Of a DNA stretch of 64,000 nt, positions 2 through 19,381 are shown piece by piece; within the stretch, counting starts at the first letter, position 1; the number at the start of each line of letters is the position of its first letter. The notes beneath the pieces are model-generated. The model saw nothing but the letters and a program-made list of their open reading frames with translations. It searched no databases and was not told where the DNA came from. Source of the DNA: Candidatus Zhuqueibacterota bacterium (GTDB taxonomy: Bacteria > Zhuqueibacterota > Zhuqueibacteria > Thermofontimicrobiales > Thiofontviventaceae); the NCBI GenBank assembly GCA_036351795.1, contig JAZBPW010000174.1:339-64338 (forward strand), read 5' to 3'. Both the position numbers and the translations under genes were made by a program.

Positions 2-1663
2 GACTGGAAAGCCATGTTTCCCGATACAGTGACATATCCGCTTACGTCTGGTGCTTCCGGTCCCAGTGAAGCCGGCAGCCATCAGGTCGAAACCTCTGAT
101 ACGGACAACGGCAGAGTCGGCGTTCTCGTGGCAAATCCCGGACACGACTTCTATCTGTTCGAGAGTTTTGATGATGGTGTTACTTGGAACGACGCCTATC
201 AGGTAATTGGAAACACCTTTTTCACGGACGAGGATTCGCTTTCTGCTCCGTTTTTGTGGGATGTCGTCATTATCGACAGCTCGGAATTCGGCGGTGATAT
301 CGATACGATTCTTTATCCATTCTATCACGATTCTGAGACCGGTGAGCCGGAAACATGGGGTCCCCGACCTCATGGTCCTGCAGATCTGCTGTATGTGAAT
401 GGTGAACCCCATGTCGTCTGGAATCAAACGTTATGGACTTCTGATAATTCTTACTATCCAAACGGGTATAGCTACACTTGGACGAATCCGGCTTATAAAT
501 TTTTGGACGGCAGTACAAGGCGCAGAGATGCAAATTTTTCTATTAAGCACTGGAGCCCTTCCACAGGCGTTTCAACTATTTGGTTCCAAGATGAAACTTC
601 CAGTGTATGGCCGGGAACGTTCCAGCAGTACGTCACTATGCCGCAGATCGGTGTCGATGAAAGCGGTTCGCTCTATTGCCTGTTCACCAAGTACAGCGAT
701 ACCGACACCCTTCTGGCGTCGGATGGCATCAGCCAGGCTGACACAGATTTTGGACCTCTGAGTTTCGGTCGTATCTGGGGCGCGAAATCGGACGATGGCG
801 GCGCGACATGGTATGACGCTGTGCAAATGATACCCGAAGAGGATTGTATTCATCAGAATCTCAGATACATCGCTGTCGCGAATCAGAACGGTAATGATGC
901 GATTCAAATTCTTTATCAGAATACGCCGGATGTTCCGGGTGTGCCGATCGGCGAAGGTTCCGATCACAGCACCTGGGCCAATGCGAATATGATGCACTGG
1001 GCGATACCGACATCTGCATTTCCAATGACTATGGAGGTGGAAAAGGGACCAGAACTTCTGCTGGAAACCTCCAGCACCATGGGCGGATTGCATTTCGGCG
1101 ACATCGGCAATGCCGGTGAAGCGATGCTCAGCTTCAAAGTCCATAATATCGGCGACGAGGACCTCGTTGTGGATGAAATTTTCACAACCGATAAATCTTT
1201 CAACGCCACGCCGACCAGTTTCACAGTGGCTCCCGGCGGAATGCAGGAAGTTCAGGTGACTTTCAAGCCGAGAACGGATCAGATGTACGATGAAATCCTG
1301 GCGTTGCCGAACAATGACCCGACCGAAGGAAATGCCGGAATCCCATTGGAGGGCATGGGCCTGCCAACGTCAGTGGCCGAGACACCGAACGCTCAGCCCG
1401 CGACCTACGCGCTGGCTCAGAACTATCCGAATCCGTTCAATCCTGTAACCCATATCAGCTTCAGCCTGAAACAGGCTGGTCAGGTGAAACTGGCTGTCTA
1501 CAATGCGCTGGGTGAAGAGGTCGATGTGCTGGTGAATGAAAACATGCGCGGCGGAAGCCATACATTCACCTGGAAGCCGTCGAATGTCTCCAGCGGCGTC
1601 TATTTTTATCGCATCACCGCAGGTGAGTTCAGCAGCATGAAGAAGATGATTTTAATGAAATAG
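2..1663 (+). CDS. Secreted BNR/sialidase-like beta-propeller protein with T9SS C-terminal sorting domain (5' partial)
   Basis: The reading frame is open to the window edge and the M14 product has no signal peptide, so the gene is truncated. Two Asp-box/BNR motifs are present (SFDDGVTW, KSDDGGATW). There is an Ig-like segment (LSFKVHNIGDEDLVVDEI...VQVTFKP). The C-terminus QNYPNPFNPVTHISF...SGVYFYRI...KKMILMK fits the Por/T9SS CTD pattern (TIGR04183-like). Confidence 0.7.
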   Translation, partial: DWKAMFPDTVTYPLTSGASGPSEAGSHQVETSDTDNGRVGVLVANPGHDFYLFESFDDGVTWNDAYQVIGNTFFTDEDSLSAPFLWDVVIIDSSEFGGDIDTILYPFYHDSETGEPETWGPRPHGPADLLYVNGEPHVVWNQTLWTSDNSYYPNGYSYTWTNPAYKFLDGSTRRRDANFSIKHWSPSTGVSTIWFQDETSSVWPGTFQQYVTMPQIGVDESGSLYCLFTKYSDTDTLLASDGISQADTDFGPLSFGRIWGAKSDDGGATWYDAVQMIPEEDCIHQNLRYIAVANQNGNDAIQILYQNTPDVPGVPIGEGSDHSTWANANMMHWAIPTSAFPMTMEVEKGPELLLETSSTMGGLHFGDIGNAGEAMLSFKVHNIGDEDLVVDEIFTTDKSFNATPTSFTVAPGGMQEVQVTFKPRTDQMYDEILALPNNDPTEGNAGIPLEGMGLPTSVAETPNAQPATYALAQNYPNPFNPVTHISFSLKQAGQVKLAVYNALGEEVDVLVNENMRGGSHTFTWKPSNVSSGVYFYRITAGEFSSMKKMILMK

Positions 1664-1684
1664 TACGGGGTACGATTCTGTGTA

Positions 1685-1724
1685 ACCACAAGGACACTGG
1701 ATGATTATCCTCTGTCCTTGTGGT
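1685..1724 (+). terminator. Perfect 12-bp-stem hairpin between the BNR gene and the TonB-dependent receptor gene (attenuator, processing or stabiliser hairpin; weak U-tract)
   Basis: ACCACAAGGACA (1685-1696) and TGTCCTTGTGGT (1713-1724) are exact reverse complements with a 16-nt loop. They are followed by ATTTAAAT rather than a clean T-run. The hairpin lies 22 nt after the upstream stop and 25 nt before ATG 1750. Confidence 0.4.
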
Positions 1725-1749
1725 ATTTAAATCAGGGAGTGAATGTGTA

Positions 1750-4731
1750 ATGAGAAAAATCACTAAATCAGCCTTATTTCTCATAATAATGCTGGTAATC
1801 AGTTCTCAAATATGTCTGGCCGGCACTGTCGGAAAGATCGTCGGTTATGTGACGGACGCGAAAACAGGAGAGCCTTTGCCGGGTTGTAATGTGGTGATCA
1901 AGGGCACGAATATGGGCTCCGCGACGGACATCGAAGGGTATTTTTTCATCGTCAATGTGCCTCCCGGTACCTACACCGTATTTGCCAGTATGGTTGGCTA
2001 TGGTGTGCTCGAAAAGACCGGAGTTCGCATCTCCATGGATTTGACGACAAATGTCAATTTCAGGCTCAAGGAAGAGGTGATCGAAGGCGAAACCGTACAG
2101 GTGGTCGCCGAGAGACCCATGGTGGAAAAGGACGTCACCGTCAAGAAGATGGTGATCAGCGCGCAGGAGATCAGAAGCGCGCCAGTCCAGGACCTCACCG
2201 ACATGATGACACTGCAATCCGGTGTGATTGCCATCGAATATCAATCCTACGGAATTCCCGGATTCGCCGCGCGTGGTGTGGAACAGATCCATGTCCGTGG
2301 CGGCCGGTCGGGAGAGGTCGGGTATATTTTCGACGGCATGTACATCGAGAATCCAACATACGGCGGAATCGGTAAGGGTACGCGTCTCAATAAGTACGCA
2401 GTGGAAGAGGTTGTGACCGAGACAGGTGTTTTCAATGCCGAATACGGCGATGCCATGTCCAGCATGGTCAACTGGGTGACCCGATCAGGTGATTTTCATA
2501 AATATGAGGGTATTCTGAGATACCGGACGAGCGAGATCGGTGGCAGCCTGGTAGATAGAAGCAGTTTCCTCTATCCAAACAGGATCCAGGGTTTGAAGGA
2601 TTTCGCCGGCGCGTTCGGCGGTCCGATTCCCTTTCTCAAGAATAAGGTCTCTTTTTATGTCTCAGGACAATCAACGAGCGAGCGATCCCGCGTCGTCGAG
2701 TTCGATGAAAATACATGGACCGATGGACCCTTGCCGGGGAACAATCCATATAACCCTGTGTCGAATTACCTCCCGCCGTACAATCCCAATGATCCGGATG
2801 ATCGCTCTGATCCGCTGGACACGATTTCCGGATGGCGGGCGCTGGGGTATGAAGGAACGAAAGACGTGTTTGCCAAACTCGCATGGCGTATCAACCCCAA
2901 CATGCAGCTCTATCTGACCAACTGGATCGTGGATACGGATCTCAAATTTTACGGCAATGAAGGCGAGTCGCTCATTTTTCAGTATTATGAGGACGGTAAA
3001 AACTGGACGCTGCTCAACTCCGACCGGCAGAGCCTCGAATGGCGGCATCAGTTGTCATCGAAGACATATTACACGCTCCGGTATTCACGTTTCTGGCAGC
3101 GCAGGCGTTATCTCGTGAAGAATCAGGATAATGATAACGACGGATATGATGACTGGCTCGAAACCCGGCTTGGCACGGATCCCTATAACGCGAATCCCAA
3201 CGTGGAAGACGCGGTTCCGGTGGATTCGGACAATGATGGCTATCCGGATGAAGTAGAGATAAATCTGGGTTTATTGCGGGATGATGTCGATATCATTCTT
3301 CCCGGGGGTGCGGAAAACGATCCGAACGTATACCCGGATCCGTCGCTATTCCCGCTGAGCAACGAGTGGCTGGAACCCTGGCAATACAACTCATGGGGGT
3401 ACGGCTATCAGGCGCCATATTACAGCTACACGATCGAAGGCTCCGGCCGCTACTGGCACCACTCCTACGCCGAAACCAATGAACTGCGGCTGGATGTGAC
3501 GAGCCAGGTGAGCAAGAACCATCAACTGCAGATGGGGATCGATGGCAAAACGCACAACCTGTTTTTTGATGAAATTCAGCTCCCATGGCTTGAGCAACCT
3601 TATGAAGACAGCTATCACAATTATCCATACGAGGCTGCGGCATACATTCAGGACAAGGTTGAGTATCCGCACATGACCATCAACCTCGGCCTGCGTTTCG
3701 ACATGAATAACTATAATACCACGGCTTGGGAAGATCCGAACGATCCCGACAGTCCATTGGTCGATACAAAAAATAAATACAAATGGAGTCCCAGGCTCGG
3801 TATATCGCATGTGATCACCGATCGCGCGACATTTACGTTCGGCTACGGTATCTTCTATCAGAATCCGATTTACAGGAATATCTATCTCAACAGCCAGCGC
3901 GATTTAACCACATTCTCTCCCATAGTGGGAAATCCGCTGGTGGGTGCTCAAAAACTTACGGCATATGAATTCGGCGTACGGAACCAGGTCTCCTCGGACT
4001 GGGTCGTCGACCTGGTCGGCTGGATCAAGGAGTACGGCGAGCTGGATGCTACGGAGAGAGTCCCCGCATTCCCGTTCAGCTACACGGTGAATAAGGGCAT
4101 CGATTACGGCACGGCACGGGGTGTGGATGTCACGCTTGAAAAACGGAGTATTTCGGACAATCTCGCCGGACGTGTCACCTATACGTACTCAGTCGCAAAG
4201 GCGAATCGCGCGGATCCATGGGAAGGATACAGAAACACGGATACGCCTGAAACTATGCCAAAAAGAGAGATTCTGATGAATTATGACCGTACCCATGACT
4301 TCAGCGTGATCATGGGATATCTGACGCCAAAGGGCAGGGGGATCGATATTTTCGGAATAAAACCTTTTTCCAACCTGCGCTGGGATGTTGTCTTCTTTGC
4401 GCAGAGCGGCGCACCCTATACGCCGACCATCGAAGGCATACCACAGGAGACGAATTCCGAGAGAATGCCCTGGATTTATCAGACAAATTTAGGGTTCTCC
4501 AAGATATTCGAGATCGGCGATTTCAAGTACAAGATCGGTATGACCGTTGAAAATCTTTTCGATCGCGAGAATGTGATCGATGTTTATAATGAAACAGGGA
4601 GGCCGGATGATCCAGGCCGTCGCGCGAATAACAGGATCGCTGCCGGACAAAATTCCGACACATCGTACGATACGCCATACTTTTACGGTCCGAGAAGAAG
4701 TATTCAGTTCACAACGGAAATTGAGTTTTAA
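1750..4731 (+). CDS. SusC/RagA-like TonB-dependent outer-membrane receptor (carboxypeptidase-regulatory-like N-domain + plug + barrel)
   Basis: Start moved from track position 1720 (inside the hairpin) to ATG 1750, which gives the signal peptide MRKITKSALFLIIMLVISSQICLA. The N-domain reads GKIVGYVTDAKTGEPLPGCNVVIKGTNMGSATDIEGYFFIVNVPPGTYTVFASMVGY. A plug-like segment reads ISAQEIRSAPVQDLTDMMTLQSGV...HVRGGRSGEVGYIFDGMYIENP. An ~800-aa barrel region ends in the OMP-type terminal Phe (TTEIEF). Confidence 0.8.
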   Translation: MRKITKSALFLIIMLVISSQICLAGTVGKIVGYVTDAKTGEPLPGCNVVIKGTNMGSATDIEGYFFIVNVPPGTYTVFASMVGYGVLEKTGVRISMDLTTNVNFRLKEEVIEGETVQVVAERPMVEKDVTVKKMVISAQEIRSAPVQDLTDMMTLQSGVIAIEYQSYGIPGFAARGVEQIHVRGGRSGEVGYIFDGMYIENPTYGGIGKGTRLNKYAVEEVVTETGVFNAEYGDAMSSMVNWVTRSGDFHKYEGILRYRTSEIGGSLVDRSSFLYPNRIQGLKDFAGAFGGPIPFLKNKVSFYVSGQSTSERSRVVEFDENTWTDGPLPGNNPYNPVSNYLPPYNPNDPDDRSDPLDTISGWRALGYEGTKDVFAKLAWRINPNMQLYLTNWIVDTDLKFYGNEGESLIFQYYEDGKNWTLLNSDRQSLEWRHQLSSKTYYTLRYSRFWQRRRYLVKNQDNDNDGYDDWLETRLGTDPYNANPNVEDAVPVDSDNDGYPDEVEINLGLLRDDVDIILPGGAENDPNVYPDPSLFPLSNEWLEPWQYNSWGYGYQAPYYSYTIEGSGRYWHHSYAETNELRLDVTSQVSKNHQLQMGIDGKTHNLFFDEIQLPWLEQPYEDSYHNYPYEAAAYIQDKVEYPHMTINLGLRFDMNNYNTTAWEDPNDPDSPLVDTKNKYKWSPRLGISHVITDRATFTFGYGIFYQNPIYRNIYLNSQRDLTTFSPIVGNPLVGAQKLTAYEFGVRNQVSSDWVVDLVGWIKEYGELDATERVPAFPFSYTVNKGIDYGTARGVDVTLEKRSISDNLAGRVTYTYSVAKANRADPWEGYRNTDTPETMPKREILMNYDRTHDFSVIMGYLTPKGRGIDIFGIKPFSNLRWDVVFFAQSGAPYTPTIEGIPQETNSERMPWIYQTNLGFSKIFEIGDFKYKIGMTVENLFDRENVIDVYNETGRPDDPGRRANNRIAAGQNSDTSYDTPYFYGPRRSIQFTTEIEF

Positions 4732-4770
4732 TCTCTGATACATTTATCTAAAATCAGAAGAGGCAATTTT

Positions 4771-7700
4771 ATGAGGAAATTAAGTATTATCGTAATTCTA
4801 TTTTCCTTGCTTTTCACGCATGCGATCCTTTTGGCAGTGGATGCCAAGAAATCGGATACAACATCGGGTTCATTGAAGAAGGGATCGGAGAATGAGATGA
4901 GCTCGGCCATCGATGAAACGCCCGAAGAGGCCATCGCGCAACGGGCAAAGGGTTTTTTGCTGAAAGGCGAGTTAAAGACCATGACGGCCAACACCGGCAA
5001 GATCGTGGGCCATGATTTTTCCAACTGGTCGAATCCCGAAGGATTGTACAAAGGATTTCAATACCTGGCAGCGGTCGGCATGATGGTGGGTGTGAACGGC
5101 GCCCGGGATGATGATCCTGCTGAAATGAAAGAACGCTATCCCTGGAGTCTGCGTCCGCACCCGACGATTACGGACAGCTTTTATTACTGGGGACCGACGG
5201 TTTCCGAGTCGCATTTCGATCGGACGAGCAATGTCACACGACCGGACTGGATGCCGGTGAAGAACCACAATGGCAGACTGCATTCCGGATCGGTGATCGC
5301 CTCCGAGGTGTCAGAATATCAGCAGTATGCTGCGCTGAATGAGCAGGTGCCTTTGTTGGCGACCAGTGATAAGCCGAATAGCTGGCCGACCGGATATTAC
5401 AATGAAAATGGAGAGTGGATGCTTGCTCCTTCCGGCATTTACGCAGACCTGACGGATAATGAGAAAGCATTAGTCGACAGTCTGAAAGCCTATTTCGATC
5501 CGGAAGAGGAGACATGGCATTTCTGGCCCGGTCCATGGGCAAGAGATCCCAACCCTAACTCCCCGACCTATAATATTGAAGTGGCGGGAAGTTTTTTCTC
5601 GGATGTGGATATCTACATGGCGTATGATGACCGCTGGGCGGTTCGGGATATCGACGATAAGCAGGGTTACACAATGGGACTGGAAGTGAATGTCTCCGGT
5701 TTTTCATACGGACGTTCATTTGCCGAGGATATTATCTTCTTCCCCGTTCAGATCATCAATAAAAGCAATGAGATTGGCACCATCAAGCAAGGTCGCAGGT
5801 GGGAAGAGTATACCAATGACGGACAGGGCTGGGATTATAAAGATATGTATGTCGGATTCTATTTCGACGTGGATGCCTATAACAAACAGGCCGATGGTAA
5901 TCTGTCCGGCAGAACAAATGATGATGACATGATGGCGTACAACAGCGATCTTGATTTCGCGTACATCTGGGATCTGGATGACGAAAGCGGCGGACTGACA
6001 GGCATGGCATACACTGCCCTCAAATTTTTAGATTCACCGCCATCTGCAAGAGATCTGGATCTTGATAACGATGGTGTGATCGATGTCATGCAGGGTGACA
6101 AGCTTGGTTTGACCGACTGGCACTGGTTCGACTGGTACGCCAGACCGGGCGTTCGTGCTGTGGAAACGAATTCAGGGCCTTTTGTCGGTGATGGAACCAC
6201 ACCGGTGGCCCGGAACAAGGAAGAAGCCATGTATCGCGTGATGAGCGGCGATACAACCGGATTGACCGAGTCGCAGAAAGACTGGTATTTCTGGCATTCT
6301 GATCCCGCTGCTACCGATAATCTGCATTTCAATTCATTGGAAAATCTGTTCGGCAATTATCCCAATGGACTCGATTGCGTCCTTATCGCCAGCGCGGGAC
6401 CTTTTGATCTGGCGCTTGGCGATACTGTCAATTCGTCGTTCAGCATCATTATGGGCGACAGCCCCATCGATCTGGTACAGAACGCGGAGATCGCGCAGTT
6501 GATGTACGATAATTATTATCAGGGACCGGATCCGCCAAAGGCGCCGAATGTCCAGGCCGTTGTATCGCCCTATACGACGACAACGGGTGAAACCCGGAAC
6601 AGAGTCACATTGTATTGGGATCGTCGTTCAGAGGAGTACATGGACGTGATGACGGGCTACAAGGACTTCGAGGGCTATCGCGTATACAAGAGCACGGACG
6701 GCGGCAGGACATGGGGCGACCCGGAGAGAGATCTCATCCGCGATGAGCTCGGCATCTCCCGCGGCTGGTTGCCAGTCGCTTACTGTGACAAGATCGACGG
6801 CATAGGCGGCAGAGATCAATTCGCGCCATGGATATACCTCGGAAATGATGAGATCGATGAGGGTGAGGGCGAAGATGGACTCTTCCACTCTTTCACAGAT
6901 TATGACATAGAAGACGGTGTGACTTACTCTTACGCGGTTACGTCCTATGACTATGGAATCGAAGAGGACAACCTGCTCCTGAATCCGCTGAAGTTTCAGT
7001 TCAATCTCGAATCCCTGGAAAATTTCAAGGGGAACAGTGCGTCAGAACCGCAGTTCGTCAGCGTGACGCCGCAGCCAAAGGCCAGCAATTTCGTGGATGT
7101 GAAAATCGATACCAACACCGATGGTACGGTCAGGCGCATCGAGGGCAGCGGTCTCGCCAAGATCGTGGTCGATGTTGTCGATCCCTATCAGGTGACGGGA
7201 CATGAGTATAAGATCATTTTCAGGGATTCGCTCATATCCACAATGATTCCGGCTCTGGACTCTGTGGCAACGGATACATTGTACGGAAGCAAGGATACAG
7301 TGACAGTCTATGACTACTATGTCGATTCGACCGGTACAGAGCAACGTCAGACCCTGGTCTACAATGTATGGGATCTCGATCAGCAAGAGTGGAGGTTCAC
7401 CGACAATGATGGGAAGGCTGCTTTCAGTGATCGCATATTCAACATCGATGGCGGTGGCGCCGGTGTCGGAACGACAATCGACAGCCTCAATCAGGGCTTC
7501 ATCAACGGCACCGAGTATTCTCCGATATTCGACGGACTCCGGCTGAAGATCACCAATGTGGCGAACAAACCGTTCTTCCGCAGAGCGCGATGGTCCGGAG
7601 AGTCCAACTGGGAGATCGATTTTGTGAAGTGGGCGACTCAGGTTCCCAAGGATTATATGCTGATATTCAACAGTTCTTATCCTGATTCGGCATATCAACT

Positions 7701-8484
7701 GGCAGGGCCGCTCATCAACAGGATTCCGATCAATTTCAAGGCGTACGATATCACAGAAGGCGTGAATAGTCCCGATCCAGTCGACGCGATCTGGATGGAG
7801 GTTGATGAAGAACCGTTGGGTGAATTCAACAGCGGTGATGAGCTGGGATTCATCGAAGACGCGACCTTTTTCAATACACCGGGCGGTGTTTTGCCACGCG
7901 GCACCAAAACGTGGAAACTGGATCTCACATGGTATGATGAGGACACCTGGGTCATCTTTCCGCCGGAAACGCTGCTGACGTCAAATACGGATCCGGAAAC
8001 AGGTGTCGTGACAGTCGACACGACGGTCATACCGGCCGATTCCGTCTTCAGGTTCGAAAGCATACCGTGGGAAGACAACGATACGCTCTTCATTACGACG
8101 TGGAAACCGCTCTCAACGAGTGATATTTTCCAGTTCGACACGACACCGTATGAGATACGGGATGATATGGATGATGCGCTCGCGAACGTCCGCGTCGTTC
8201 CAAATCCGTATATTGTGTCCGCGTATTGGGAGTCGGATCCCAACAGACTGAAAATCCAATTTACCAATTTGCCCAAGGTGTGTACGATTCACATCTTCAA
8301 TCTGGCGGGTGAGCTGATCAACAGGCTCGAACACTGGAGTCCGGCGAGCGATCCTGGAACGGGTACGGAAGACTGGAACCTCTGGACGATGAATCGTCAG
8401 GAGGTCGCTTTCGGACTCTATATCTATGTGATCGAAACGCCACAGGGAGAAAAAAAGATTGGTAAATTTGCAATCATCCGTTAG
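4771..8484 (+). CDS. Giant secreted protein of unknown function (1237 aa) with FN3-like module and class-2 (PNPY...GKFAIIR) C-terminal beta-sandwich sorting-type domain
   Basis: Signal peptide MRKLSIIVILFSLLFTHAILLAVDA with no lipobox Cys. FN3-like stretch PPKAPNVQAV...RVTLYWDRRSE...FEGYRVYKSTDGGRTWG. Ca-loop-like DLDLDNDGVIDV. C-terminus VVPNPYIVSAYW...IHIFNLAGELI...GLYIYVIETPQGEKKIGKFAIIR. No catalytic motif recognised (no HEXXH). It starts 39 nt after the TBDT stop. Confidence 0.75.
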   Translation: MRKLSIIVILFSLLFTHAILLAVDAKKSDTTSGSLKKGSENEMSSAIDETPEEAIAQRAKGFLLKGELKTMTANTGKIVGHDFSNWSNPEGLYKGFQYLAAVGMMVGVNGARDDDPAEMKERYPWSLRPHPTITDSFYYWGPTVSESHFDRTSNVTRPDWMPVKNHNGRLHSGSVIASEVSEYQQYAALNEQVPLLATSDKPNSWPTGYYNENGEWMLAPSGIYADLTDNEKALVDSLKAYFDPEEETWHFWPGPWARDPNPNSPTYNIEVAGSFFSDVDIYMAYDDRWAVRDIDDKQGYTMGLEVNVSGFSYGRSFAEDIIFFPVQIINKSNEIGTIKQGRRWEEYTNDGQGWDYKDMYVGFYFDVDAYNKQADGNLSGRTNDDDMMAYNSDLDFAYIWDLDDESGGLTGMAYTALKFLDSPPSARDLDLDNDGVIDVMQGDKLGLTDWHWFDWYARPGVRAVETNSGPFVGDGTTPVARNKEEAMYRVMSGDTTGLTESQKDWYFWHSDPAATDNLHFNSLENLFGNYPNGLDCVLIASAGPFDLALGDTVNSSFSIIMGDSPIDLVQNAEIAQLMYDNYYQGPDPPKAPNVQAVVSPYTTTTGETRNRVTLYWDRRSEEYMDVMTGYKDFEGYRVYKSTDGGRTWGDPERDLIRDELGISRGWLPVAYCDKIDGIGGRDQFAPWIYLGNDEIDEGEGEDGLFHSFTDYDIEDGVTYSYAVTSYDYGIEEDNLLLNPLKFQFNLESLENFKGNSASEPQFVSVTPQPKASNFVDVKIDTNTDGTVRRIEGSGLAKIVVDVVDPYQVTGHEYKIIFRDSLISTMIPALDSVATDTLYGSKDTVTVYDYYVDSTGTEQRQTLVYNVWDLDQQEWRFTDNDGKAAFSDRIFNIDGGGAGVGTTIDSLNQGFINGTEYSPIFDGLRLKITNVANKPFFRRARWSGESNWEIDFVKWATQVPKDYMLIFNSSYPDSAYQLAGPLINRIPINFKAYDITEGVNSPDPVDAIWMEVDEEPLGEFNSGDELGFIEDATFFNTPGGVLPRGTKTWKLDLTWYDEDTWVIFPPETLLTSNTDPETGVVTVDTTVIPADSVFRFESIPWEDNDTLFITTWKPLSTSDIFQFDTTPYEIRDDMDDALANVRVVPNPYIVSAYWESDPNRLKIQFTNLPKVCTIHIFNLAGELINRLEHWSPASDPGTGTEDWNLWTMNRQEVAFGLYIYVIETPQGEKKIGKFAIIR

Positions 8485-8510
8485 CATAAATTACATGGAG
8501 TTCATATAAA

Positions 8511-9545
8511 ATGAGAAAAATTTCAGTCTTGATCATGATCATATTCGTCTTTGGCGCGGTGAGTATCGCCGGTGCCGAAGATTTTTCAAAAGTTGGGACA
8601 TCCGTTGCCCAGTTTTTGAAAATACCAGCCGGAGCCAGAGGCGCTTCGCTGGGAGGGGCCTATGCCGCGGCAGCCGAAGATGTCTTCGCCATGGCGTGGA
8701 ATCCCGCCGGGCTTGGACATGTGAAGCGGACTTCTCTGGGCGGTACGTATAATAGCTACATCGCCGATTTGAGCTATAGCTATGTCGGCGTGGCAGTCCC
8801 GGTGGAGGGGTCGTCCACATTCGGTGTCAGCGCGTTATTTCTGACCACGGATCCCATCGAGATCACGACCATCGAACAGCCCAATGGAACGGGCACTTAC
8901 TACGACTACAGCGGTGTGGTGATCGGCGCGTCATACGCCCGGTGGTTCACCGACAGGCTATCCGTAGGACTGACCATCAAATTGATCCGTGAATCGATCT
9001 ACAGGGAGAGCGCCAGCGCGCTGGCGTTCGATATCGGCTCCCAGTTCGATACCGGCCTCTACGGCGTACGCCTGGCCATGTGTATATCCAACTTCGGCAG
9101 CAAGATGCAGATGGACGGCCCGGATATCAATACGGTATCCGATACCAATCCGAATCTTCAGGGTGACCGCACATCGGACAGCCGGCTTCGGACGCAGGAA
9201 TGGCCGTTGCCTCTGTTATTCAGAATGGGTATCATGATGGATATTTACGGTGGCACAGGTACATTTTTTACCGATGAAAATAATAGAGTGACGCTGATCG
9301 TCGACGCGAATGATCCCATCGACAACAACCTGCGCGGTAATTTCGGTCTGGAATACAACTGGAACAACATGCTATCACTGCGCGGCGGCTATCATTCGAA
9401 TTACGATGATGATACGCTGGGATTGACATTCGGCGGCGGTTTGAATTTCAAGTACGGAACCACGGATCTCAGCCTGGATTACGCGTATCAGGATTTCGGA
9501 CTGCTGAATTCAGTACATCAGTATACACTGTCTTTATATTTTTAA
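8511..9545 (+). CDS. PorV/PorQ-family (UPF0164/FadL-like) outer-membrane beta-barrel protein
   Basis: Signal peptide MRKISVLIMIIFVFGAVSIAGA. The N-terminal motif FSKVGTSVAQFLKIPAGARGASLGGAYAAAAEDVFAMAWNPAGLG is what I recall as diagnostic of PorV/PorQ-type barrels. The sequence has an amphipathic beta-strand pattern and ends ...YTLSLYF. It starts 26 nt after the upstream stop, with a GGAG RBS. Confidence 0.65.
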   Translation: MRKISVLIMIIFVFGAVSIAGAEDFSKVGTSVAQFLKIPAGARGASLGGAYAAAAEDVFAMAWNPAGLGHVKRTSLGGTYNSYIADLSYSYVGVAVPVEGSSTFGVSALFLTTDPIEITTIEQPNGTGTYYDYSGVVIGASYARWFTDRLSVGLTIKLIRESIYRESASALAFDIGSQFDTGLYGVRLAMCISNFGSKMQMDGPDINTVSDTNPNLQGDRTSDSRLRTQEWPLPLLFRMGIMMDIYGGTGTFFTDENNRVTLIVDANDPIDNNLRGNFGLEYNWNNMLSLRGGYHSNYDDDTLGLTFGGGLNFKYGTTDLSLDYAYQDFGLLNSVHQYTLSLYF

Positions 9546-9736
9546 GCTGAGTTCGTGAGGATCGTTTATTAAATTAAAGGAGGTGGTATACCGTTTTTGC
9601 ATCACTTGTTGAATCAACATGAGTAAAAAATGCATCTAACCATTTAGAATCGGTGAGGAGGTGGTGTGAACACAAAAGAAGAAGTCGTCATTAATTCATC
9701 GTTTCATTCAATCACTAACTTTATCAGGAGGAAAAC

Positions 9737-12700
9737 ATGGTAAAGAAAATGTTTACCGTTGTGATGGTTCTCTTCGTGATGTCGTTTTTCGCAGTGAGCC
9801 TGCTTGCAGATAATAAGGTTCCTGCAACGAAAAAAGAGACAGTCAAAAAAGTGGATGGTCTTCGATTAGACAAGTCGACCCCCGTCCCGAAAACAGAACA
9901 GGTGGAGGTTTATGCCTCTGACTTCGAAACAGAAGGCGAATGGACCCCGGAAAAAGTCAATGAGGGCGGGCAGGAGTTTGTATGGACTGAGGCCGATGCC
10001 AACAGCCCCACGCACAGCTGGAATGTGCCGGATGACATCGCCATGGATGAGGCGAGCTCAAATCCAACATATGCTGAAGTCTGGGGACCTGAGATTCTGC
10101 TTCCCACCGAAGTAGATGGTGATCCTGTTGCCAGAATTGAGGAAACATACTTCGTCAAAGCGATATCACCGAATACTGCTGAAGGTGGATATGTGTATGA
10201 CGTCTGGAGAGCACTCCTGGCTGTAGAAAATCCCTTTGGAACCTACTGGGTTGGCAGCGACGTTGACGCATTCGGTGGTACCGGTGTGTCCTGGTGGTGT
10301 GCCAATCCTGATGCAGGAACCTATGAAGATGTCTGGAATACTTCTCTGTCGACACCTACGATTGATCTCTCAGGTGCGGGTACAGTGACATTGAGTTTCA
10401 AAAATGCTCCGGATGCAGAAGCAGGCTGGGACTCCTGTTACGTTGAGATCTCAATAGACGGAGGCGCGAGTTGGGCAGTCGTTGACGCCTATTCAGAAGA
10501 AAATGATCCGGTCGTATACCGTGATGAAAGTTATGATATATCCGCCTTCAAATCGACTGATGTTGTCGTTCGCTTTCGATTTTTCTCGGATGCCAATACA
10601 ACATCTGAACACGGCTGGCACATCGATAATGTGGAGATCACAGACGGTGCGACACAATTCTTCTTCGATGATGGTGGCGATACGGCGCCATTGGCTTTGA
10701 TACCCGATCCCGAGCCATATTCTGTTAAAGAACTGCATTACGATTACGACAGAAATCAGTATGGTCCGAATGAGTGGACCATTGTCGATGAAGCTGCCAT
10801 TTTCAATGGCTCGCTCGACATAACTGAGTATGCAGGTGAAACGGTTAAACTGGGTTTCCGTGTATCGTCAGACGGCTGGAACAGGCTGGGCGAAGCCCCG
10901 GGCGCTGGAATTTTCTTCGACGATGTGGCTGTTCATGCTATTTCCGGTCAGCCGCATGATGCCGCAATCGGCAGAGTGATGGTCGGTTATCCGACGACCA
11001 ATGGCGTGGTGACGCCGCTGGCTGTGGATGTGGCAAACATCGGTTTCGAGCCTGAAACCGGTATCGGACTGTGGTATGCCTTCGATGATCAACAGGGAAT
11101 GCCAGTTCCGCCATTCATCGCACTGGACGCGGGACAGGATACGACGCGTATTTTCGGGACCGTGATGGCACAGCCCGTGGGACCGCACACGATGCGATCC
11201 TGGGCCACGCTGGCTAATGACGGGGATCTTTCTAATAATGAAAATGTGTCACCAGTATTTGCAACGCATCCTCCGGGATATGCCGAAATGGGATACGATA
11301 ATCGCTATGGTGCAGCCTTTTTAACAACTTCAACAAGTTTTGTATGGTTTTCTCCATTGCCAGAACTCGCCAGCACACCTTCTTTCGACCTTAACTGGGC
11401 GAGTGTTATGTTTTATGATGCTGGTGGTGCGGGCGATACTCTCGATGTGACCATCGCTGAAGTTGATCCGAACAATCCATTCACTTTTCTGAGAGTGATT
11501 CATGAAGGTCCGGAAATTCTGCCCCCGGGCGATTTTTCCACACATTACTTTGATTTCGATCCGCCGGTGAAGGGACTTACCGGTGATATCGTTGTTCTGG
11601 TCGATATGGCCAACAGCAACGGCAGCGGATCTGTTTTGATGGATGATGGTACGCCTTGGTTTGGTCATAATATCTTCTATGACGCACCCTCCGATGGCTG
11701 GTATTACTCGGGTTATGGCAGATTGATGAACATCGGTGTCAGCTATTACGATGCTCCCGAGATCATGAGCGTGCTGGATGTTCCCAATGATCAGGGCGGC
11801 AAAGTACTGGTCAGCTGGGAAGCTTCGCTCAACGAGATGGGACCCTTCAATATCGATATGTACGGCTTGTGGCACAAGGTCGATCCCGATCTCTTCGATA
11901 TGAGCACAGTCAATCCCGTGGAAGTGCCCAATATGGACGCGCTTTATGACTATGGAAAGAATGCCAAGAAAGACGATATCGTGACAGTGAGAACCACGGA
12001 AGATGTCGCGACATGGCGTTTCGTAGGCATGGTTCCGCCGCATCCGGGCATGCATCATTACAGCCTGGCTGCAGGCACATGGAAAGACTCCACCGTCGTC
12101 GACGGCCTGTATCTCAACACCTATATGGTAACGGCTTACGCCGAAGACGGCTTTGTGGATTCTGAGGAAGCCATGGGATATTCGGTAGACAACCTGCATC
12201 CGCATGTGCCCATGGGCTTTGCAGCTATGGAATCCGCCGGCAGTGTGAAGCTGACCTGGGAAGCGCCTGTGGATGAGGATTTCAACTACTTCGCACTGTA
12301 CCGTGAAGACATGACAGAACCTGTCGCCATGACGACGGAACTGGAATTCGTGGACACGGATGTTGAAATCGGCAAAGAGTACACCTATCATCTGACGGCT
12401 TTCGATTTCTCCGGAAACGAGAGCGGTCCGGCCGATGCGACATTGACGATGACGTCAGTGATCGGCAGCTCGAATATGATCCCCACCGAGTTCGCGTTGA
12501 GAAATAACTATCCCAACCCGTTCAATCCGGTGACGACGATCAAATACGAATTGCCCGATCCGAGCAATGTGACGATCAAAGTGCTCAACATCGCTGGCCA
12601 GGAAGTGGCCACGCTGGTGAACACGGATAAAACTGCGGGTTATCACACGATCAGCTGGGATGCGACGAACGTCGGCAGTGGTGTCTATTTCTACACCATG

Positions 12701-12748
12701 AAAGCCGGTAGCTTCAAAGCGACTCAGAAGATGATTTTGACCAAGTAA
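9737..12748 (+). CDS. Secreted 1003-aa protein with MAM-like/choice-of-anchor-J-like domain, FN3 domain and T9SS CTD
   Basis: AGGAGG RBS 5 nt upstream. Signal peptide MVKKMFTVVMVLFVMSFFAVSLLA. MAM-like signature ...VVRFRFFSDANTTSEHGWHIDNVEITDG. PNDQGG-initiated Ig/FN3-like module (VLDVPNDQGGKVLVSWEAS). FN3 (SVKLTWEAPVDEDFNYFALYRED...EYTYHLTAFDFSGNESGPA). CTD NNYPNPFNPVTTIKY...SGVYFYTMKAGSFKATQKMILTK. No HEXXH motif. Confidence 0.8.
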   Translation: MVKKMFTVVMVLFVMSFFAVSLLADNKVPATKKETVKKVDGLRLDKSTPVPKTEQVEVYASDFETEGEWTPEKVNEGGQEFVWTEADANSPTHSWNVPDDIAMDEASSNPTYAEVWGPEILLPTEVDGDPVARIEETYFVKAISPNTAEGGYVYDVWRALLAVENPFGTYWVGSDVDAFGGTGVSWWCANPDAGTYEDVWNTSLSTPTIDLSGAGTVTLSFKNAPDAEAGWDSCYVEISIDGGASWAVVDAYSEENDPVVYRDESYDISAFKSTDVVVRFRFFSDANTTSEHGWHIDNVEITDGATQFFFDDGGDTAPLALIPDPEPYSVKELHYDYDRNQYGPNEWTIVDEAAIFNGSLDITEYAGETVKLGFRVSSDGWNRLGEAPGAGIFFDDVAVHAISGQPHDAAIGRVMVGYPTTNGVVTPLAVDVANIGFEPETGIGLWYAFDDQQGMPVPPFIALDAGQDTTRIFGTVMAQPVGPHTMRSWATLANDGDLSNNENVSPVFATHPPGYAEMGYDNRYGAAFLTTSTSFVWFSPLPELASTPSFDLNWASVMFYDAGGAGDTLDVTIAEVDPNNPFTFLRVIHEGPEILPPGDFSTHYFDFDPPVKGLTGDIVVLVDMANSNGSGSVLMDDGTPWFGHNIFYDAPSDGWYYSGYGRLMNIGVSYYDAPEIMSVLDVPNDQGGKVLVSWEASLNEMGPFNIDMYGLWHKVDPDLFDMSTVNPVEVPNMDALYDYGKNAKKDDIVTVRTTEDVATWRFVGMVPPHPGMHHYSLAAGTWKDSTVVDGLYLNTYMVTAYAEDGFVDSEEAMGYSVDNLHPHVPMGFAAMESAGSVKLTWEAPVDEDFNYFALYREDMTEPVAMTTELEFVDTDVEIGKEYTYHLTAFDFSGNESGPADATLTMTSVIGSSNMIPTEFALRNNYPNPFNPVTTIKYELPDPSNVTIKVLNIAGQEVATLVNTDKTAGYHTISWDATNVGSGVYFYTMKAGSFKATQKMILTK

Positions 12749-12771
12749 TTTTTTGGTCATCAGCTTTAATG

Positions 12772-12808
12772 AAAGGGCCTTCGGTTTATACCGGGGCCCT
12801 TTTTTATT
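12772..12808 (+). terminator. Rho-independent terminator after the 9737-12748 gene
   Basis: AAGGGCC (12773-12779) pairs with GGCCCTT (12795-12801). The hairpin is followed by a T-rich tract TTTTTATT and begins 24 nt after the stop codon. Confidence 0.8.
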
Positions 12809-13186
12809 GTTGAATCACGAAGCACACGAAGAAAAAGAGTCAGAAGAGAGAACCGGCGCGTGTCATTGCGAGGATGACAGTGACGTAGTCACTGGACGAC
12901 GTGGCAATCTCGATAACCAATCATGCTGACTTTGGAGTGCATTTCATTCATGCGCTGCTCTTACAGGTGTCGTCCACCTCTCAGGTGGCCTACACCTTTC
13001 GGTATTTTATCATATTATTCATCCCGTTATCCTGTCAATTTGTTTTTCTCTGTATCCTTCGTGTCCTCTATGGTGATTCAGATCTTTCTCAGCGTCCTCC
13101 GCGTTCTCGGCGGTTAATATTTACTCATTCTTTGAAATATGAACGTCGGTGATGATCTCATCCTTTCAGAATTCCGTAATTTCACC

Positions 13187-13215
13187 TTGACTTTCTTCGC
13201 TGAAATGTGTAAATT
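13187..13215 (+). promoter_or_regulatory. Sigma70-type promoter of the protease operon (TTGACT-17-TAAATT)
   Basis: TTGACT at 13187-13192, an exactly 17-nt spacer, and TAAATT at 13210-13215. The -10 box lies 49 nt upstream of the S8 protease start. Confidence 0.5.
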
Positions 13216-13263
13216 AAATCTTTTGTAAGTGACAACTTTCCTGATATTTATAGGGCAATTTAT

Positions 13264-16986: not shown

Positions 16987-16993
16987 TGTAAAA

Positions 16994-19330: not shown

Positions 19331-19381
19331 GATATATATCTAAAATTCTAAAATTAACTCACAAAATACAGGATGTGATTC

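What the first reader, a model, noticed from the sequence alone, without database searches (positions are those of the whole stretch)
1750..9545. SusC-like barrel + 1237-aa sorting-domain giant + PorV/PorQ-like barrel: a compact outer-membrane module with no SusD
Seen in sequence: three + strand genes are separated by only 39 nt (4731->4771) and 26 nt (8484->8511). They are preceded by a 12-bp hairpin and followed by a 191-nt gap. Gene 1 has the SusC/RagA layout (carboxypeptidase-regulatory-like N-domain, plug, ~800-aa barrel, terminal Phe). Gene 2 occupies the slot where Bacteroidota polysaccharide utilisation loci (PULs) encode the SusD lid lipoprotein. It is instead 1237 aa, has a non-lipoprotein signal peptide, has no catalytic motif I can recognise, and ends in a ~95-aa beta-sandwich sorting-type domain. 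Gene 3 carries the PorV/PorQ N-terminal signature.

Established knowledge: SusC transporters work with a surface lid protein. PorV is a CTD-binding T9SS shuttle barrel. In Flavobacterium, type-B CTD cargo genes are often followed by a cognate PorP/SprF-like barrel gene.

Inference: the giant protein is exported and tethered through the adjacent dedicated barrel. It then acts as the substrate-capture or lid partner of the TonB-dependent transporter, giving a SusD-independent, T9SS-anchored uptake machine. I know of no characterised equivalent, but I cannot search.
Basis: partly seen in the sequence, partly recalled or inferred. Interest (0 to 1): 0.8.

Follow-up and report, generated by a model that had tools for sequence, protein, structure and literature searches.

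The report
Transporter, T9SS giant and docking barrel
Three tightly linked outer-membrane genes (a TonB-dependent transporter, a 1,237-residue secreted protein of an unannotated family, and a PorV/PorQ-like barrel) form a module conserved across several FCB phyla, usually beside secreted proteases, that probably takes up nutrients without a SusD-type lid.

Summary
In detail: genes, spacings, hairpin and domain calls are as described.

- **Gene 1** is a genuine TonB-dependent transporter (NTE, conserved TonB-box-like motif, plug, barrel). It is not a SusC/RagA member: 58 bits against a cut-off of 368.
- **Gene 3** passes the PorV/PorQ family model (193.7/90) but fails the PorV, PorQ and PorV2 equivalogs.
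- **Gene 2** has no Pfam or PDB sequence relative. It models as a β-supersandwich N-domain, Fn3/Ig modules and a T9SS CTD.
- **The gene 2 CTD** is not type B and misses the type A cut-off. It most resembles the retained CTDs of PorZ and PorU.

The triad is syntenic across KSB1, Calditrichota, Marinimicrobia, Ignavibacteria and others. g1 lies upstream in 54 of 64 testable cases and g3 downstream in 50 of 59. The three genes co-diverge (r = 0.80–0.91). Extra g2 paralogs always bring their own barrel. Neighbours are rich in T9SS cargo and peptidases, with no SusD.

Best reading: g2 is exported by the T9SS, keeps its CTD and docks on g3, PorZ–PorQ style. It then serves the adjacent transporter, probably for protein-derived substrates. 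Anchoring is inferred by analogy. The partnership with the transporter rests on genomic evidence only. I found no published description.

The parts
1685..1724 (+). 12-bp perfect hairpin (arms 1685-1696 and 1713-1724, 16-nt loop with a 4-bp inner stem) between the upstream CTD-protein gene and g1. Probably a terminator or stabiliser of the upstream gene.
   Evidence: z = -4.4. Hairpins of different sequence occur at the same position in L006, L007 and L008. No Rfam family matches.
1750..4731 (+). g1: TonB-dependent transporter of a distinct subfamily, 993 aa from the ATG at 1750. Signal peptide, CarboxypepD_reg NTE, TonB-box-like motif, plug, barrel, C-terminal Phe.
1837..2103 (+). g1 N-terminal extension (CarboxypepD_reg-like domain, aa 30-118).
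   Evidence: PF13715 at 70.9 bits and PF13620 at 64.6 bits. Present in 29 of 30 family members.
2086..2118 (+). g1 TonB-box-like motif GETVQVVAERP (aa 113-123), between the NTE and the plug.
   Evidence: Conserved as (E/D)x(V/I)xVxAERP(L/M)V in nearly all 30 aligned family members.
2128..2451 (+). g1 plug domain (aa 127-234).
   Evidence: PF07715 at 34.5 bits against a cut-off of 23.9. The family profile matches the plugs of Cir, PfeA and YncD.
2452..4728 (+). g1 beta-barrel region (aa 235-993), with a TSP3-like Ca-binding insert at nt 3127-3252.
   Evidence: The family profile matches the PhuR and PfeA barrels. 14 of 30 members hit PF00593 and 9 of 30 hit PF25183. TSP3_bac hit and motif.
4771..8484 (+). 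g2: 1237-aa secreted protein of an unannotated family. SPI signal, linker, supersandwich N-domain, Fn3-like module, variable beta-rich middle region, PorZ-like T9SS CTD.
4951..6537 (+). g2 conserved N-domain (aa ~61-589): one compact domain rich in invariant Asp, Trp, His and Cys residues. Fold related to the non-catalytic beta-supersandwich N-domains of GH94, GH15 and GH116 enzymes.
   Evidence: Model pLDDT 89.5, pTM 0.90. Foldseek best E = 4e-6, TMq ~0.25. Invariant columns.
6550..7065 (+). g2 Fn3-like module (aa ~594-765), conserved motif DFEGY(K/R)(I/V)Y(K/R).
   Evidence: 3mpc Fn3-like, marginal; 43% mean pairwise identity.
7129..8142 (+). g2 variable beta-rich middle region (aa ~787-1124).
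   Evidence: 23% mean pairwise identity. Encoded on a separate protein (g2b) in the split Marinimicrobia variant.
8191..8481 (+). g2 C-terminal sorting domain (aa 1141-1237), PorZ/PorU-like subtype: VVPNPY...GKFAIIR.
   Evidence: Foldseek: 8gl6_D RemA CTD (TMt 0.65, probability 1.0), PorZ 5m11, PorU 6za2. NCBIfam best hit is the PorZ CTD; TIGR04183 scores 16.9 against a cut-off of 23. 31% identity to the window's PorZ CTD against 15-22% to ordinary cargo CTDs.
8511..9545 (+). g3: PorV/PorQ-family 14-strand-type barrel, 344 aa. A dedicated paralog, not the PorV, PorQ or PorV2 equivalog.
   Evidence: NF033709 at 193.7 against 90. PorQ 80.3/220, PorV 65.5/250, PorV2 60.9/325. The family profile matches PorV 6h3i_F at E = 4.3e-29. 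All 30 family members match PorV_fam.
14..1663 (+). Context: upstream T9SS type A cargo gene (Ig-like and BNR motifs plus CTD). Its position is conserved in KSB1, Calditrichota and Marinimicrobia loci.
9737..22291 (+). Context: downstream run of T9SS type A cargo genes. MAM-domain protein (9737-12748), S8 subtilase (13264-16986) and two papain-C1 peptidases (16994-19330, 19382-22291). The MAM and S8 genes are syntenic with the triad across phyla.

Best explanation
The three genes encode a conserved outer-membrane uptake module found mainly in FCB lineages outside the classic Bacteroidota.

Step 1 (shown at sequence and profile level): g1 is a TonB-dependent transporter with an NTE, a conserved TonB-box-like motif, a plug and a barrel.

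Step 3 (inferred by analogy with PorZ-PorQ and PorU-PorV): the g2 CTD is not cleaved. It leaves the translocon bound to the dedicated PorV/PorQ-family barrel g3, which then anchors g2 at the cell surface.

Step 4 (inferred from synteny, co-divergence and neighbourhood): the anchored g2 sits next to g1. It captures or presents substrate to g1 through its supersandwich N-domain and Ig/Fn3 modules. This is the role that SusD, RagB or BtuG lipoproteins play in Bacteroidota.

Step 5 (inferred from neighbours): the substrate is most likely protein-derived, meaning peptides or glycopeptides released by the co-located T9SS-secreted S8, C1, M28, M16 and M1 peptidases.
For: - g1 is a TBDT. It has CarboxypepD_reg and Plug. 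The family profile hits Cir, PhuR, PfeA and YncD. Of 30 members, 29 have NTE plus Plug, 14 hit TonB_dep_Rec and 9 hit OMP_b-brl_4. The TonB-box-like motif is conserved.
- g3 is PorV/PorQ family.
- The g2 C-terminus has a T9SS CTD fold with an invariant GKF near the end. PMC10994853 describes a near-invariant Lys in that position of type A CTDs.
- The g2 CTD is of the retained class. Its best NCBIfam hits are the PorZ and PorU CTDs. It shares 31% identity and the PNPYI.S / GExKIGK(F/I)A(I/V)(I/V)R motifs with the window's own PorZ CTD. Against six ordinary cargo CTDs it reaches 15-22%.
- The CTD is the best-conserved region of g2: 46% against 23% for the middle region. In the same loci it is more conserved than the CTDs of neighbouring cargo: 56% against 32% and 42%.
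- PMC10202324 states that the PorU and PorZ CTDs are retained and bound to PorV and PorQ. It also proposes that cognate PorV-like barrels protect CTDs from cleavage.
- Pairing rule: in the split or duplicated variants, each CTD-bearing g2 paralog is followed by its own g3. The repeat unit is [CTD tail + g3].
- Coupling to g1: g1 lies directly upstream in 54 of 64 cases and g3 downstream in 50 of 59, with median gaps of ~9 nt. The order holds across KSB1, Calditrichota, Marinimicrobia, Ignavibacteria and others, down to ~26% identity and even where the g2 N-domain differs. Pairwise divergences correlate at r = 0.91, 0.87 and 0.80.
- Several loci occur per genome, as with PULs.
- Substrate: 53 immediate neighbours include 19 CTD proteins and S8, M28, M20, M16 and M1 peptidases. 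No glycoside hydrolase or SusD family is among the 25 most frequent.
- The window encodes a bona fide PorZ (276.7 bits against 260), so a T9SS attachment complex exists in this organism.
Against: - No physical interaction was tested. Multimer modelling was not available and no experimental data exist.
- CTD retention is an analogy, not an observation.
- A marine Marinimicrobia subclade has g2 alone among housekeeping genes, so g2 can be encoded, and perhaps can act, without an adjacent g1 or g3.
- The N-domain's only fold relatives are carbohydrate-enzyme accessory domains. That fits glycan binding at least as well as peptide binding.
- The invariant His, Cys and Asp residues could form an unrecognised catalytic site.
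- Co-divergence of neighbouring genes is expected from shared inheritance alone.
- The exact repeats in four MAGs could partly reflect assembler behaviour.
Confidence: 0.5

Rival explanations
1. The triad is a lineage-specific T9SS accessory or attachment module, not an uptake machine. On this reading g2-g3 is a PorZ-PorQ or PorU-PorV analogue that processes, glycosylates or anchors the neighbouring CTD-bearing proteases. g1 is a PorF-like or Oar-like TBDT that supports secretion or energises the process.
For: - The g2 CTD is PorZ/PorU-like and g3 is PorV/PorQ family.
- The neighbours are mostly T9SS cargo.
- A TBDT with the same NTE architecture, Oar, is required for protease export in Myxococcus (PMC6434023).
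- PorF is listed as a poorly characterised T9SS component (PMC8754138). From memory, not tested here, it is TBDT-like.
- The supersandwich N-domain could bind LPS glycan, as PorZ does.
Against: - The window has a separate PorZ that passes its equivalog cut-off.
- g2 has no PorZ propellers and no PorU C25 domain. NF052228 scores 19.5-25.9 against 260 and NF033707 scores 14-20 against 420, in both cases on the CTD only.
- Several paralogous triads per genome and variable N-domains suit substrate-specific modules, not a core machine.
- M. xanthus lacks a T9SS, so Oar-type export is an alternative to the T9SS rather than a partner of it.
Confidence: 0.17
2. g2 is primarily a surface enzyme of an unrecognised class, or an adhesin or surface-coat protein. 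It is anchored by g3. The transporter is merely co-regulated with it and imports the products without forming a complex.
For: - The N-domain has invariant His, Cys, Asp, Glu and Ser columns (H451, C536, the TNDDDMM motif and others, in full-length numbering).
- The orphan g2 subclade works without a neighbouring g1 or g3.
- The architecture is large and multi-Ig, like adhesins.
Against: - No Pfam, NCBIfam or PDB sequence match to any enzyme.
- The fold relatives are non-catalytic accessory domains, and the catalytic (alpha/alpha)6 domain is missing.
- The strict g1-g2-g3 order with ~9-nt gaps across phyla argues for more than loose co-regulation.
Confidence: 0.18
3. The adjacency is fortuitous, or a mis-annotated SusC/SusD-type PUL remnant.
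For: None beyond the generic SusC-like layout of g1.
Against: - Conserved order in about 85% of testable loci across several phyla.
- g1 fails TIGR04056, and the best of 30 family members reaches only E = 3.7e-30.
- No SusD family in the window genes scanned or among the 25 most frequent families of 53 neighbours.
Confidence: 0.02

Closest known systems
SusCD / RagAB / BtuBG-type complexes of Bacteroidota (TBDT plus a surface-exposed lid or capture lipoprotein)
   Same: - A TBDT with a CarboxypepD_reg NTE is encoded directly upstream of a surface-protein gene.
- Several paralogous loci occur per genome.
- The loci also encode secreted hydrolases. RagAB specifically imports protease-generated peptides.
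   Different: - g1 is not in the SusC/RagA family (58 bits against 368).
- The partner is not a lipoprotein and has no SusD/TPR fold. It is a 1237-aa Sec/T9SS protein.
- A third component, a PorV/PorQ-like barrel, is always present.
- No complex has been demonstrated.
PorZ-PorQ and PorU-PorV pairs of the T9SS attachment complex (Porphyromonas gingivalis)
   Same: - A T9SS-exported protein whose CTD is of the PorZ/PorU sequence class.
- It is encoded beside, or works with, a PorV/PorQ-family barrel.
- In the known pairs the CTD is retained and serves as the anchor (PMC10202324).
   Different: - The g2 passenger has no beta-propellers (PorZ) and no C25 peptidase domain (PorU).
- g3 fails the PorV, PorQ and PorV2 equivalogs.
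- The module is multi-copy and linked to a TBDT.
- A separate bona fide PorZ exists in the same window.
Type B CTD cargo with cognate PorP/SprF-like barrels (e.g. SprB-SprF; PMC10202324, PMC10994853)
   Same: - The principle is the same: a dedicated carrier barrel, encoded next to its cargo, takes the cargo from the translocon and anchors it with an uncleaved CTD.
   Different: - The g2 CTD gives no type B model hit. It is a variant of the type A / PorZ class.
- The barrel is PorV/PorQ family, not PorP/SprF.
Oar of Myxococcus xanthus (TBDT required for PopC protease secretion, PMC6434023)
   Same: - Same NTE (CarboxypepD_reg) + Plug + barrel architecture.
- 9 of 30 g1-family members hit the Oar-like barrel model PF25183.
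- Genomic association with secreted proteases.
   Different: - The window's g1 does not hit PF25183.
- Oar acts in an organism without a T9SS and has no PorV-like or CTD partner.
- The direction of transport for g1 is unknown.
BamG-BamH in the Bacteroidota BAM complex (PMC12578637)
   Same: - A FadL/PorV-like 14-strand barrel uses its extracellular loops to hold a surface protein while packed against a second, larger barrel.
- This is a structural precedent for a two-barrel complex with a surface protein.
   Different: - The function is different (OMP biogenesis).
- BamH is a lipoprotein, not T9SS cargo.
- Only 4 of 30 g3-family members show weak BamG-model hits.

Membership tests
SusC/RagA TonB-linked outer membrane proteins (TIGR04056) | Score at or above the curated cut-off of the family model over the full length | tested here: not met
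   58 bits against 368.25, and only model positions 2-167 match (NTE and start of the plug). The best of 30 family members reaches E = 3.7e-30.
SusC/RagA TonB-linked outer membrane proteins (TIGR04056) | Adjacent susD/ragB-like lipoprotein gene | tested here: not met
   The downstream gene g2 has no SusD Pfam hit. No SusD family is among the 25 most frequent families of 53 neighbours.
TonB-dependent transporters (general) | Plug domain (PF07715) | tested here: met
   34.5 bits against 23.9. Present in 29 of 30 family members.
TonB-dependent transporters (general) | TonB-dependent-receptor beta-barrel | tested here: met
   The window protein alone misses PF00593 at E <= 0.01. However, the family profile matches the barrels of PhuR (8the) and PfeA, 14 of 30 members hit PF00593, and weak TIGR01786/TIGR01785 barrel hits occur in the window protein.
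TonB-dependent transporters (general) | TonB box N-terminal to the plug | tested here: met
   GETVQVVAERP at aa 113-123, conserved across the family alignment. Interaction with TonB is not testable here.
Oar-type TBDTs | CarboxypepD_reg NTE + Plug + barrel architecture | tested here: met
   The architecture is defined in PMC6434023.
Oar-type TBDTs | Oar-like barrel model PF25183 (OMP_b-brl_4) | tested here: inconclusive
   No hit for the window protein. 9 of 30 family members hit, best E = 3.2e-20.
Oar-type TBDTs | Required for protein export | not testable with these tools
   Needs genetics or biochemistry.
PorV/PorQ family (NF033709) | Score at or above the curated cut-off | tested here: met
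   193.7 bits against 90, covering 30-342 of 344 aa. All 30 relatives match. The profile matches PorV 6h3i_F at E = 4.3e-29.
PorV (NF033710), PorQ (NF033711), PorV2 (NF052325) equivalogs | Score at or above the equivalog cut-off | tested here: not met
   65.5/250, 80.3/220 and 60.9/325.
PorV/PorQ family (NF033709) | Binds a CTD through its extracellular loops | not testable with these tools
   No multimer prediction or experiment was available.
T9SS type A sorting domain (TIGR04183 / PF18962) | Score at or above the domain cut-off | tested here: not met
   No hit on full-length g2 at E <= 0.01. The isolated CTD scores 16.9 bits against 23. Only 1 of 7 family CTDs reaches the cut-off.
T9SS type A sorting domain (TIGR04183 / PF18962) | Seven-strand beta-sandwich fold of solved CTDs, with a conserved Lys near the C-terminus | tested here: met
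   8gl6_D RemA CTD (TMt 0.65, probability 1.0), PorZ 5m11 and PorU 6za2. Invariant G-K-F.
T9SS type B sorting domain | Match to a type B CTD model | tested here: not met
   No type B model among the NCBIfam hits at E <= 1 for 7 family CTDs. Caveat: HMMER's filters drop most matches above E ~0.1.
PorZ (NF052228) / PorU sortase (NF033707) | Full-length match including beta-propellers (PorZ) or the C25 peptidase domain (PorU) | tested here: not met
   Only the CTD matches. NF052228 scores 19.5-25.9 against 260 and NF033707 scores 14.1-20.3 against 420.
PorZ (NF052228) / PorU sortase (NF033707) | CTD of the retained, uncleaved class | tested here: inconclusive
   The sequence class matches. PorZ CTD is the best hit in 5 of 7 family CTDs and PorU CTD in 1 of 7, and motifs are shared with the window's PorZ. 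Actual retention is not testable here.

The most novel reading that the evidence does not exclude
This is a previously unrecognised, very widespread class of TonB-dependent uptake machine built from two barrels and one giant surface protein. [quoted passage not shown] In FCB phyla outside the classic Bacteroidota it would replace the SusD/RagB-type lipoprotein lids. That would make it a main route for acquiring protein-derived nutrients in Marinimicrobia, Calditrichota, KSB1 and Ignavibacteria. The variable N-terminal domains of the g2 family would set substrate specificity.
Probability: 0.4. Interest if true: 0.85.

Novelty: new variant of a known kind. Interest (0 to 1): 0.74.

Why it matters
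- **Mechanism.** TonB-dependent transporters with surface partners are central to nutrient capture in Bacteroidota, but every characterised partner I found is a lipoprotein. T9SS cargo anchored by cognate barrels is known only for secretion-machine parts and gliding adhesins. A module that joins the two would show a second way to build a surface-assisted transporter. It would also give a PorV/PorQ paralog a function outside the secretion machine.
- **An unannotated family.** The g2 family has at least 4,900 clusters at 50% identity at E <= 1e-10, and no Pfam or NCBIfam model matches its passenger region.
- **Ecology.** The lineages concerned include Marinimicrobia, which are abundant in oxygen-poor ocean water and incorporate label from added protein and DOM (PMC8359207). 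The module is therefore a candidate for how these uncultured heterotrophs feed.
- **Testability.** Cultured carriers exist: Caldithrix abyssi, and probably Melioribacter roseus.

Tried and rejected
- **SusC membership of g1:** rejected.
- **Type B CTD with PorP/SprF analogy:** rejected in favour of PorZ/PorU-like.
- **g2 as a PorU- or PorZ-type core T9SS component:** rejected. Only the CTD matches, a separate PorZ is present, and the module is multi-copy.
- **g2 as a known enzyme:** no Pfam, NCBIfam or PDB sequence hit, even with a 46-sequence profile. Foldseek on the whole chain returned only Ig/Fn3/CTD matches with TM < 0.1. The N-domain alone returned only accessory supersandwich domains.
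- **Clan CD (gingipain-like) His/Cys dyad:** considered for the invariant H451 and C536. Rejected on fold and spacing. Spatial proximity could not be checked because model coordinates are not exposed.
- **Alternative N-termini of distant g2 relatives:** no Pfam hit in six of the seven proteins scanned. The seventh (P0238) has N-terminal PKD/REJ/Ig repeats.
- **The 445-aa ORF after porZ as a PorQ candidate:** rejected. It is a polytopic membrane protein.
- **A second PorV-family gene in the window:** none found.
- **Literature:** eight full-text searches found no description of this triad. The Cytophaga CHU_1276-1280 cluster came up as a possible precedent. From title and abstract only, it looked like a conventional SusC/D-type PUL-like cluster with an SGBP-like binding protein, and I did not read it further.

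Full report
**1. The observation.** The three + strand ORFs exist as described.

| Gene | Coordinates | Length |
|---|---|---|
| g1 | 1720/1750–4731 | 993 aa from ATG 1750 |
| g2 | 4771–8484 | 1237 aa |
| g3 | 8511–9545 | 344 aa |

- The intergenic gaps are 39 and 26 nt, followed by 191 nt before the next gene.
- The ORF tool starts g1 at a GTG (1720). The ATG at 1750 is preceded by GGGAG, and the GTG lies inside a hairpin stem, so 1750 is the likely start.
- The hairpin has arms at 1685–1696 and 1713–1724 (12 bp, 16-nt loop). It is much more stable than shuffled sequence: −32.1 kcal/mol for the 89-nt leader, z = −4.4, and 0 of 200 shuffles fold as well.
- Relatives L006, L007 and L008 each have a hairpin of different sequence directly after the stop of the upstream gene. 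It behaves as that gene's terminator or stabiliser. No Rfam family matches it.

**2. What the three proteins are.**

*g1 (transporter).*
- It has CarboxypepD_reg (70.9 bits) and Plug (34.5 bits against a cut-off of 23.9) domains.
- A 30-member family profile matches solved TonB-dependent transporters in both plug and barrel: Cir at 4e-19, plus PhuR, PfeA and YncD.
- Of 30 relatives, 29 have NTE plus Plug, 14 hit TonB_dep_Rec and 9 hit the Oar-like barrel model.
- A TonB-box-like motif (GETVQVVAERP in the window) is conserved between the NTE and the plug.
- It is not a SusC/RagA protein. TIGR04056 scores 58 bits against a cut-off of 368, on the N-terminus only, and the best of 30 relatives reaches only E = 3.7e-30.
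- The NTE + Plug + barrel layout is generic. PMC6434023 reports it in 28% of TBDTs.

*g3 (barrel).*
- It passes the PorV/PorQ family model at 193.7 bits against 90. It fails the PorV (65.5/250), PorQ (80.3/220) and PorV2 (60.9/325) equivalogs.
- Its family profile matches PorV of the SprA translocon (6h3i_F) at 4.3e-29.
- All 30 relatives match PorV_fam.

*g2 (giant).*
- It has no Pfam hit and no PDB sequence relative, even as a 46-sequence profile.
- It has an SPI-type signal, and 38 of 44 homologs lack a Cys in the signal region.
- AlphaFold models (full chain pLDDT 77; N-domain pLDDT 89.5, pTM 0.90) give four parts:
  - a compact ~530-residue N-domain;
  - an Fn3-like module;
  - a variable β-rich middle region;
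  - a C-terminal β-sandwich.
- The β-sandwich matches the RemA CTD bound in the T9SS translocon (8gl6_D, TMt 0.65, probability 1.0), PorZ (5m11) and PorU (6za2).
- The N-domain's only relatives are the non-catalytic β-supersandwich N-domains of GH94, GH15 and GH116 enzymes (E = 4e-6, TMq ~0.25, 9% identity). g2 has no counterpart of their catalytic domain.
- So g2 is a secreted multidomain protein with no recognisable catalytic domain. Its N-domain does carry many invariant Asp, Trp, His and Cys residues.

**3. The CTD is of the retained class.**
- The neighbouring cargo proteins carry canonical type A CTDs (NYPNPFNP…KMILLK) and share 37–49% identity with one another.
- The g2 CTD shares only 15–22% with them. 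It shares 31% with the CTD of the window's own PorZ, including PNPYI(V/L)S and the terminal GExKIGK(F/I)A(I/V)(I/V)R.
- Seven g2-family CTDs were scanned against NCBIfam. The best hit is the PorZ CTD in five, the PorU CTD in one and TIGR04183 in one. TIGR04183 reaches its cut-off in only one of the seven (the window scores 16.9 against 23). No type B model hits.
- The CTD is the best-conserved region of g2: 46% mean pairwise identity against 23% for the middle region.
- In the same 11 loci the g2 CTD is more conserved (56%) than the CTDs of the adjacent S8 (32%) and MAM (42%) cargo.
- Established knowledge (PMC10202324): the PorU and PorZ CTDs are not removed and remain bound to PorV and PorQ. 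Cognate PorV-like barrels are proposed to protect CTDs from cleavage.
- PMC10994853: type A cargo leaves the translocon on PorV, and type B cargo leaves on alternative carrier barrels that then anchor it.

**4. Conservation of the module.**
- g2 has hundreds of homologs, all annotated as hypothetical. An exhaustive profile search finds 9,901 cluster representatives at E ≤ 1e-3, 4,922 at ≤ 1e-10 and 1,359 at ≤ 1e-30.
- Many of these share only the Fn3 + middle + CTD portion behind a different N-terminus. Six of seven distant relatives scanned have no Pfam hit, and one carries PKD/REJ repeats.
- A scan of species-representative genomes found at least 588 loci. These are in KSB1, Calditrichota (including Caldithrix abyssi), Marinimicrobia, Melioribacter/Ignavibacteria, some MAGs labelled Bacteroidota, WOR-3 and Gemmatimonadota. 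Often there are several loci per genome.
- In the 80 loci fetched, g1 lies directly upstream of g2 in 54 of 64 testable cases and g3 directly downstream in 50 of 59. Median gaps are ~9 nt.
- The order holds even at ~26% identity and where the N-domain differs (L067, L075, L078, L082).
- Across 27 triads the pairwise identities of the three proteins correlate: g1–g2 r = 0.91, g1–g3 0.87, g2–g3 0.80.
- In KSB1, Calditrichota and Marinimicrobia the conserved block is wider: [CTD protein]–g1–g2–g3–[MAM + CTD]–[S8 + CTD], as in window 14–16986.

**5. Informative variants.**
- *Split variant.* A Marinimicrobia subgroup splits g2 into g2a (N-domain + Fn3 + CTD) and g2b (Fn3 + middle + CTD). Each is followed by its own g3.
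  - In four of five such loci the two g3 copies are identical. The exact repeat (1,034–1,132 nt) starts 5–36 codons before the g2 stop and ends within 3 nt of the g3 stop.
  - In L054 the copies are 76% identical, so the tandem layout is real.
  - This supports one barrel per CTD protein, and suggests concerted evolution of CTD tail and barrel. Caveat: assembler loop resolution could contribute.
- *Double triad.* L069 carries two complete triads in tandem.
- *Orphan variant.* A marine Marinimicrobia subclade has g2 alone among housekeeping genes (PALP enzyme, cyclase, Lon). The coupling is therefore the rule but is not obligatory.

**6. Neighbourhood and substrate.**
- Of 53 immediate neighbours from 30 diverse loci, 19 carry T9SS sorting domains.
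- Peptidases recur: S8 ×4, M28 ×4, M20 ×4, M16 ×2 and M1 ×2, plus PDZ ×2.
- No glycoside hydrolase or SusD family is among the 25 most frequent.
- In the window the triad is followed by MAM, S8 and two papain-C1 cargo genes.
- Marinimicrobia OTUs incorporate label from added protein and DOM, and their MAGs encode extracellular S8 peptidases (PMC8359207). Caldithrix grows on proteinaceous substrates (PMC5317091).
- This points to protein-derived substrates. The carbohydrate-type fold of the N-domain leaves glycans or glycopeptides open.

**7. Mechanism proposed.**

| Step | Claim | Basis |
|---|---|---|
| 1 | g1 is a TonB-dependent transporter | shown at sequence and profile level |
| 2 | g2 is exported by Sec and then the T9SS | CTD fold shown; route inferred. 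The window has a bona fide PorZ (276.7/260) |
| 3 | The PorZ-like CTD stays uncleaved and docks on g3, which anchors g2 | inferred by analogy, plus the pairing rule and CTD conservation |
| 4 | Anchored g2 captures or presents substrate to g1, the role of SusD/RagB/BtuG | inferred from synteny, co-divergence and neighbourhood |

- A FadL-like barrel that holds a surface protein while packed against a larger barrel has a structural precedent in BamG–BamH–BamA (PMC12578637).

**8. Rivals.**
- *A T9SS accessory or attachment module with an Oar/PorF-like TBDT.* This fits the CTD class and the cargo-rich neighbourhood. It fits poorly with the multi-copy, N-terminally variable family, and a separate PorZ is present.
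- *g2 as an unrecognised enzyme or adhesin, merely co-regulated with g1.* The invariant His, Cys and Asp residues and the orphan subclade keep this open.
- *Chance adjacency or a degenerate PUL.* Excluded by the synteny data.

**9. Novelty.**
- Eight full-text searches found no description of this triad.
- No Pfam (2025) or NCBIfam (June 2026) model matches the g2 passenger.
- The components are of known kinds. What is new is the combination (TBDT, PorZ-like-CTD giant, dedicated PorV/Q barrel) and the g2 family itself.
- I rate it a new variant of a known kind, with high interest but an unproven mechanism.

Noticed in passing
window 39017-42600: A bona fide porZ (NF052228, 276.7 bits against a cut-off of 260) overlaps by 4 nt a 445-aa polytopic membrane ORF (41263-42600). 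That ORF has no Pfam, NCBIfam or PDB hit. The coupling suggests a membrane enzyme linked to PorZ's LPS-delivery role.
   Followed up: partly
window 35945-36065 (+): An FMN riboswitch (RF00050, 117.9 bits) lies upstream of a fused ABC ATPase-permease gene (36158-37822) and an NMT1-like binding-protein gene (37881-38939). This is possibly a riboflavin-related importer.
   Followed up: no
window 16994-22291: Two tandem papain-family (C1) peptidases with T9SS type A CTDs. The second also has MAM and CARDB domains. Together with the S8 and MAM proteins they form a ~12.5-kb run of secreted proteins after the triad.
   Followed up: partly
window 57815-61387 (-): A 1190-aa protein in which only a type A T9SS sorting domain is recognisable. 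The passenger region is unannotated.
   Followed up: no
L024 12956-14087 and 17849-18980; also L026, L028, L057: Exact direct repeats of 1,034-1,132 nt. They cover the last 5-36 codons of a g2 paralog plus the whole PorV-like gene and end within 3 nt of its stop codon. They occur in four independent Marinimicrobia MAGs, while L054 has the same layout at 76% identity. This is either gene conversion or assembler collapse.
   Followed up: partly
L039, L040, L042, L043, L045, L053, L083 (and the + strand copy in L044): A marine Marinimicrobia subclade has g2 homologs (~1,055 aa, CTD intact) among housekeeping genes, with no transporter or PorV-like gene nearby.
   Followed up: partly
L079 (676-bp contig); L006, L015, L021, L036: A 'Candidatus Pelagibacter communis' single-cell assembly contig encodes a g2 fragment at 48% identity and is a likely contaminant. 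Several MAG labels (Cytophagia, Lentisphaeria, Deferribacteres, Anaerolineales) clash with loci that closely match KSB1 or Marinimicrobia ones.
   Followed up: no
window 3127-3252: g1 carries a thrombospondin-type-3-like Ca-binding insert (DNDNDG...DSDNDGYPDE, aa 460-501) within the barrel region, presumably in an extracellular loop.
   Followed up: no
window 31889-34243: A class II-type ribonucleotide reductase with a C-terminal TSCPD domain. The upstream 335-nt gap gave no Rfam hit at gathering threshold.
   Followed up: no
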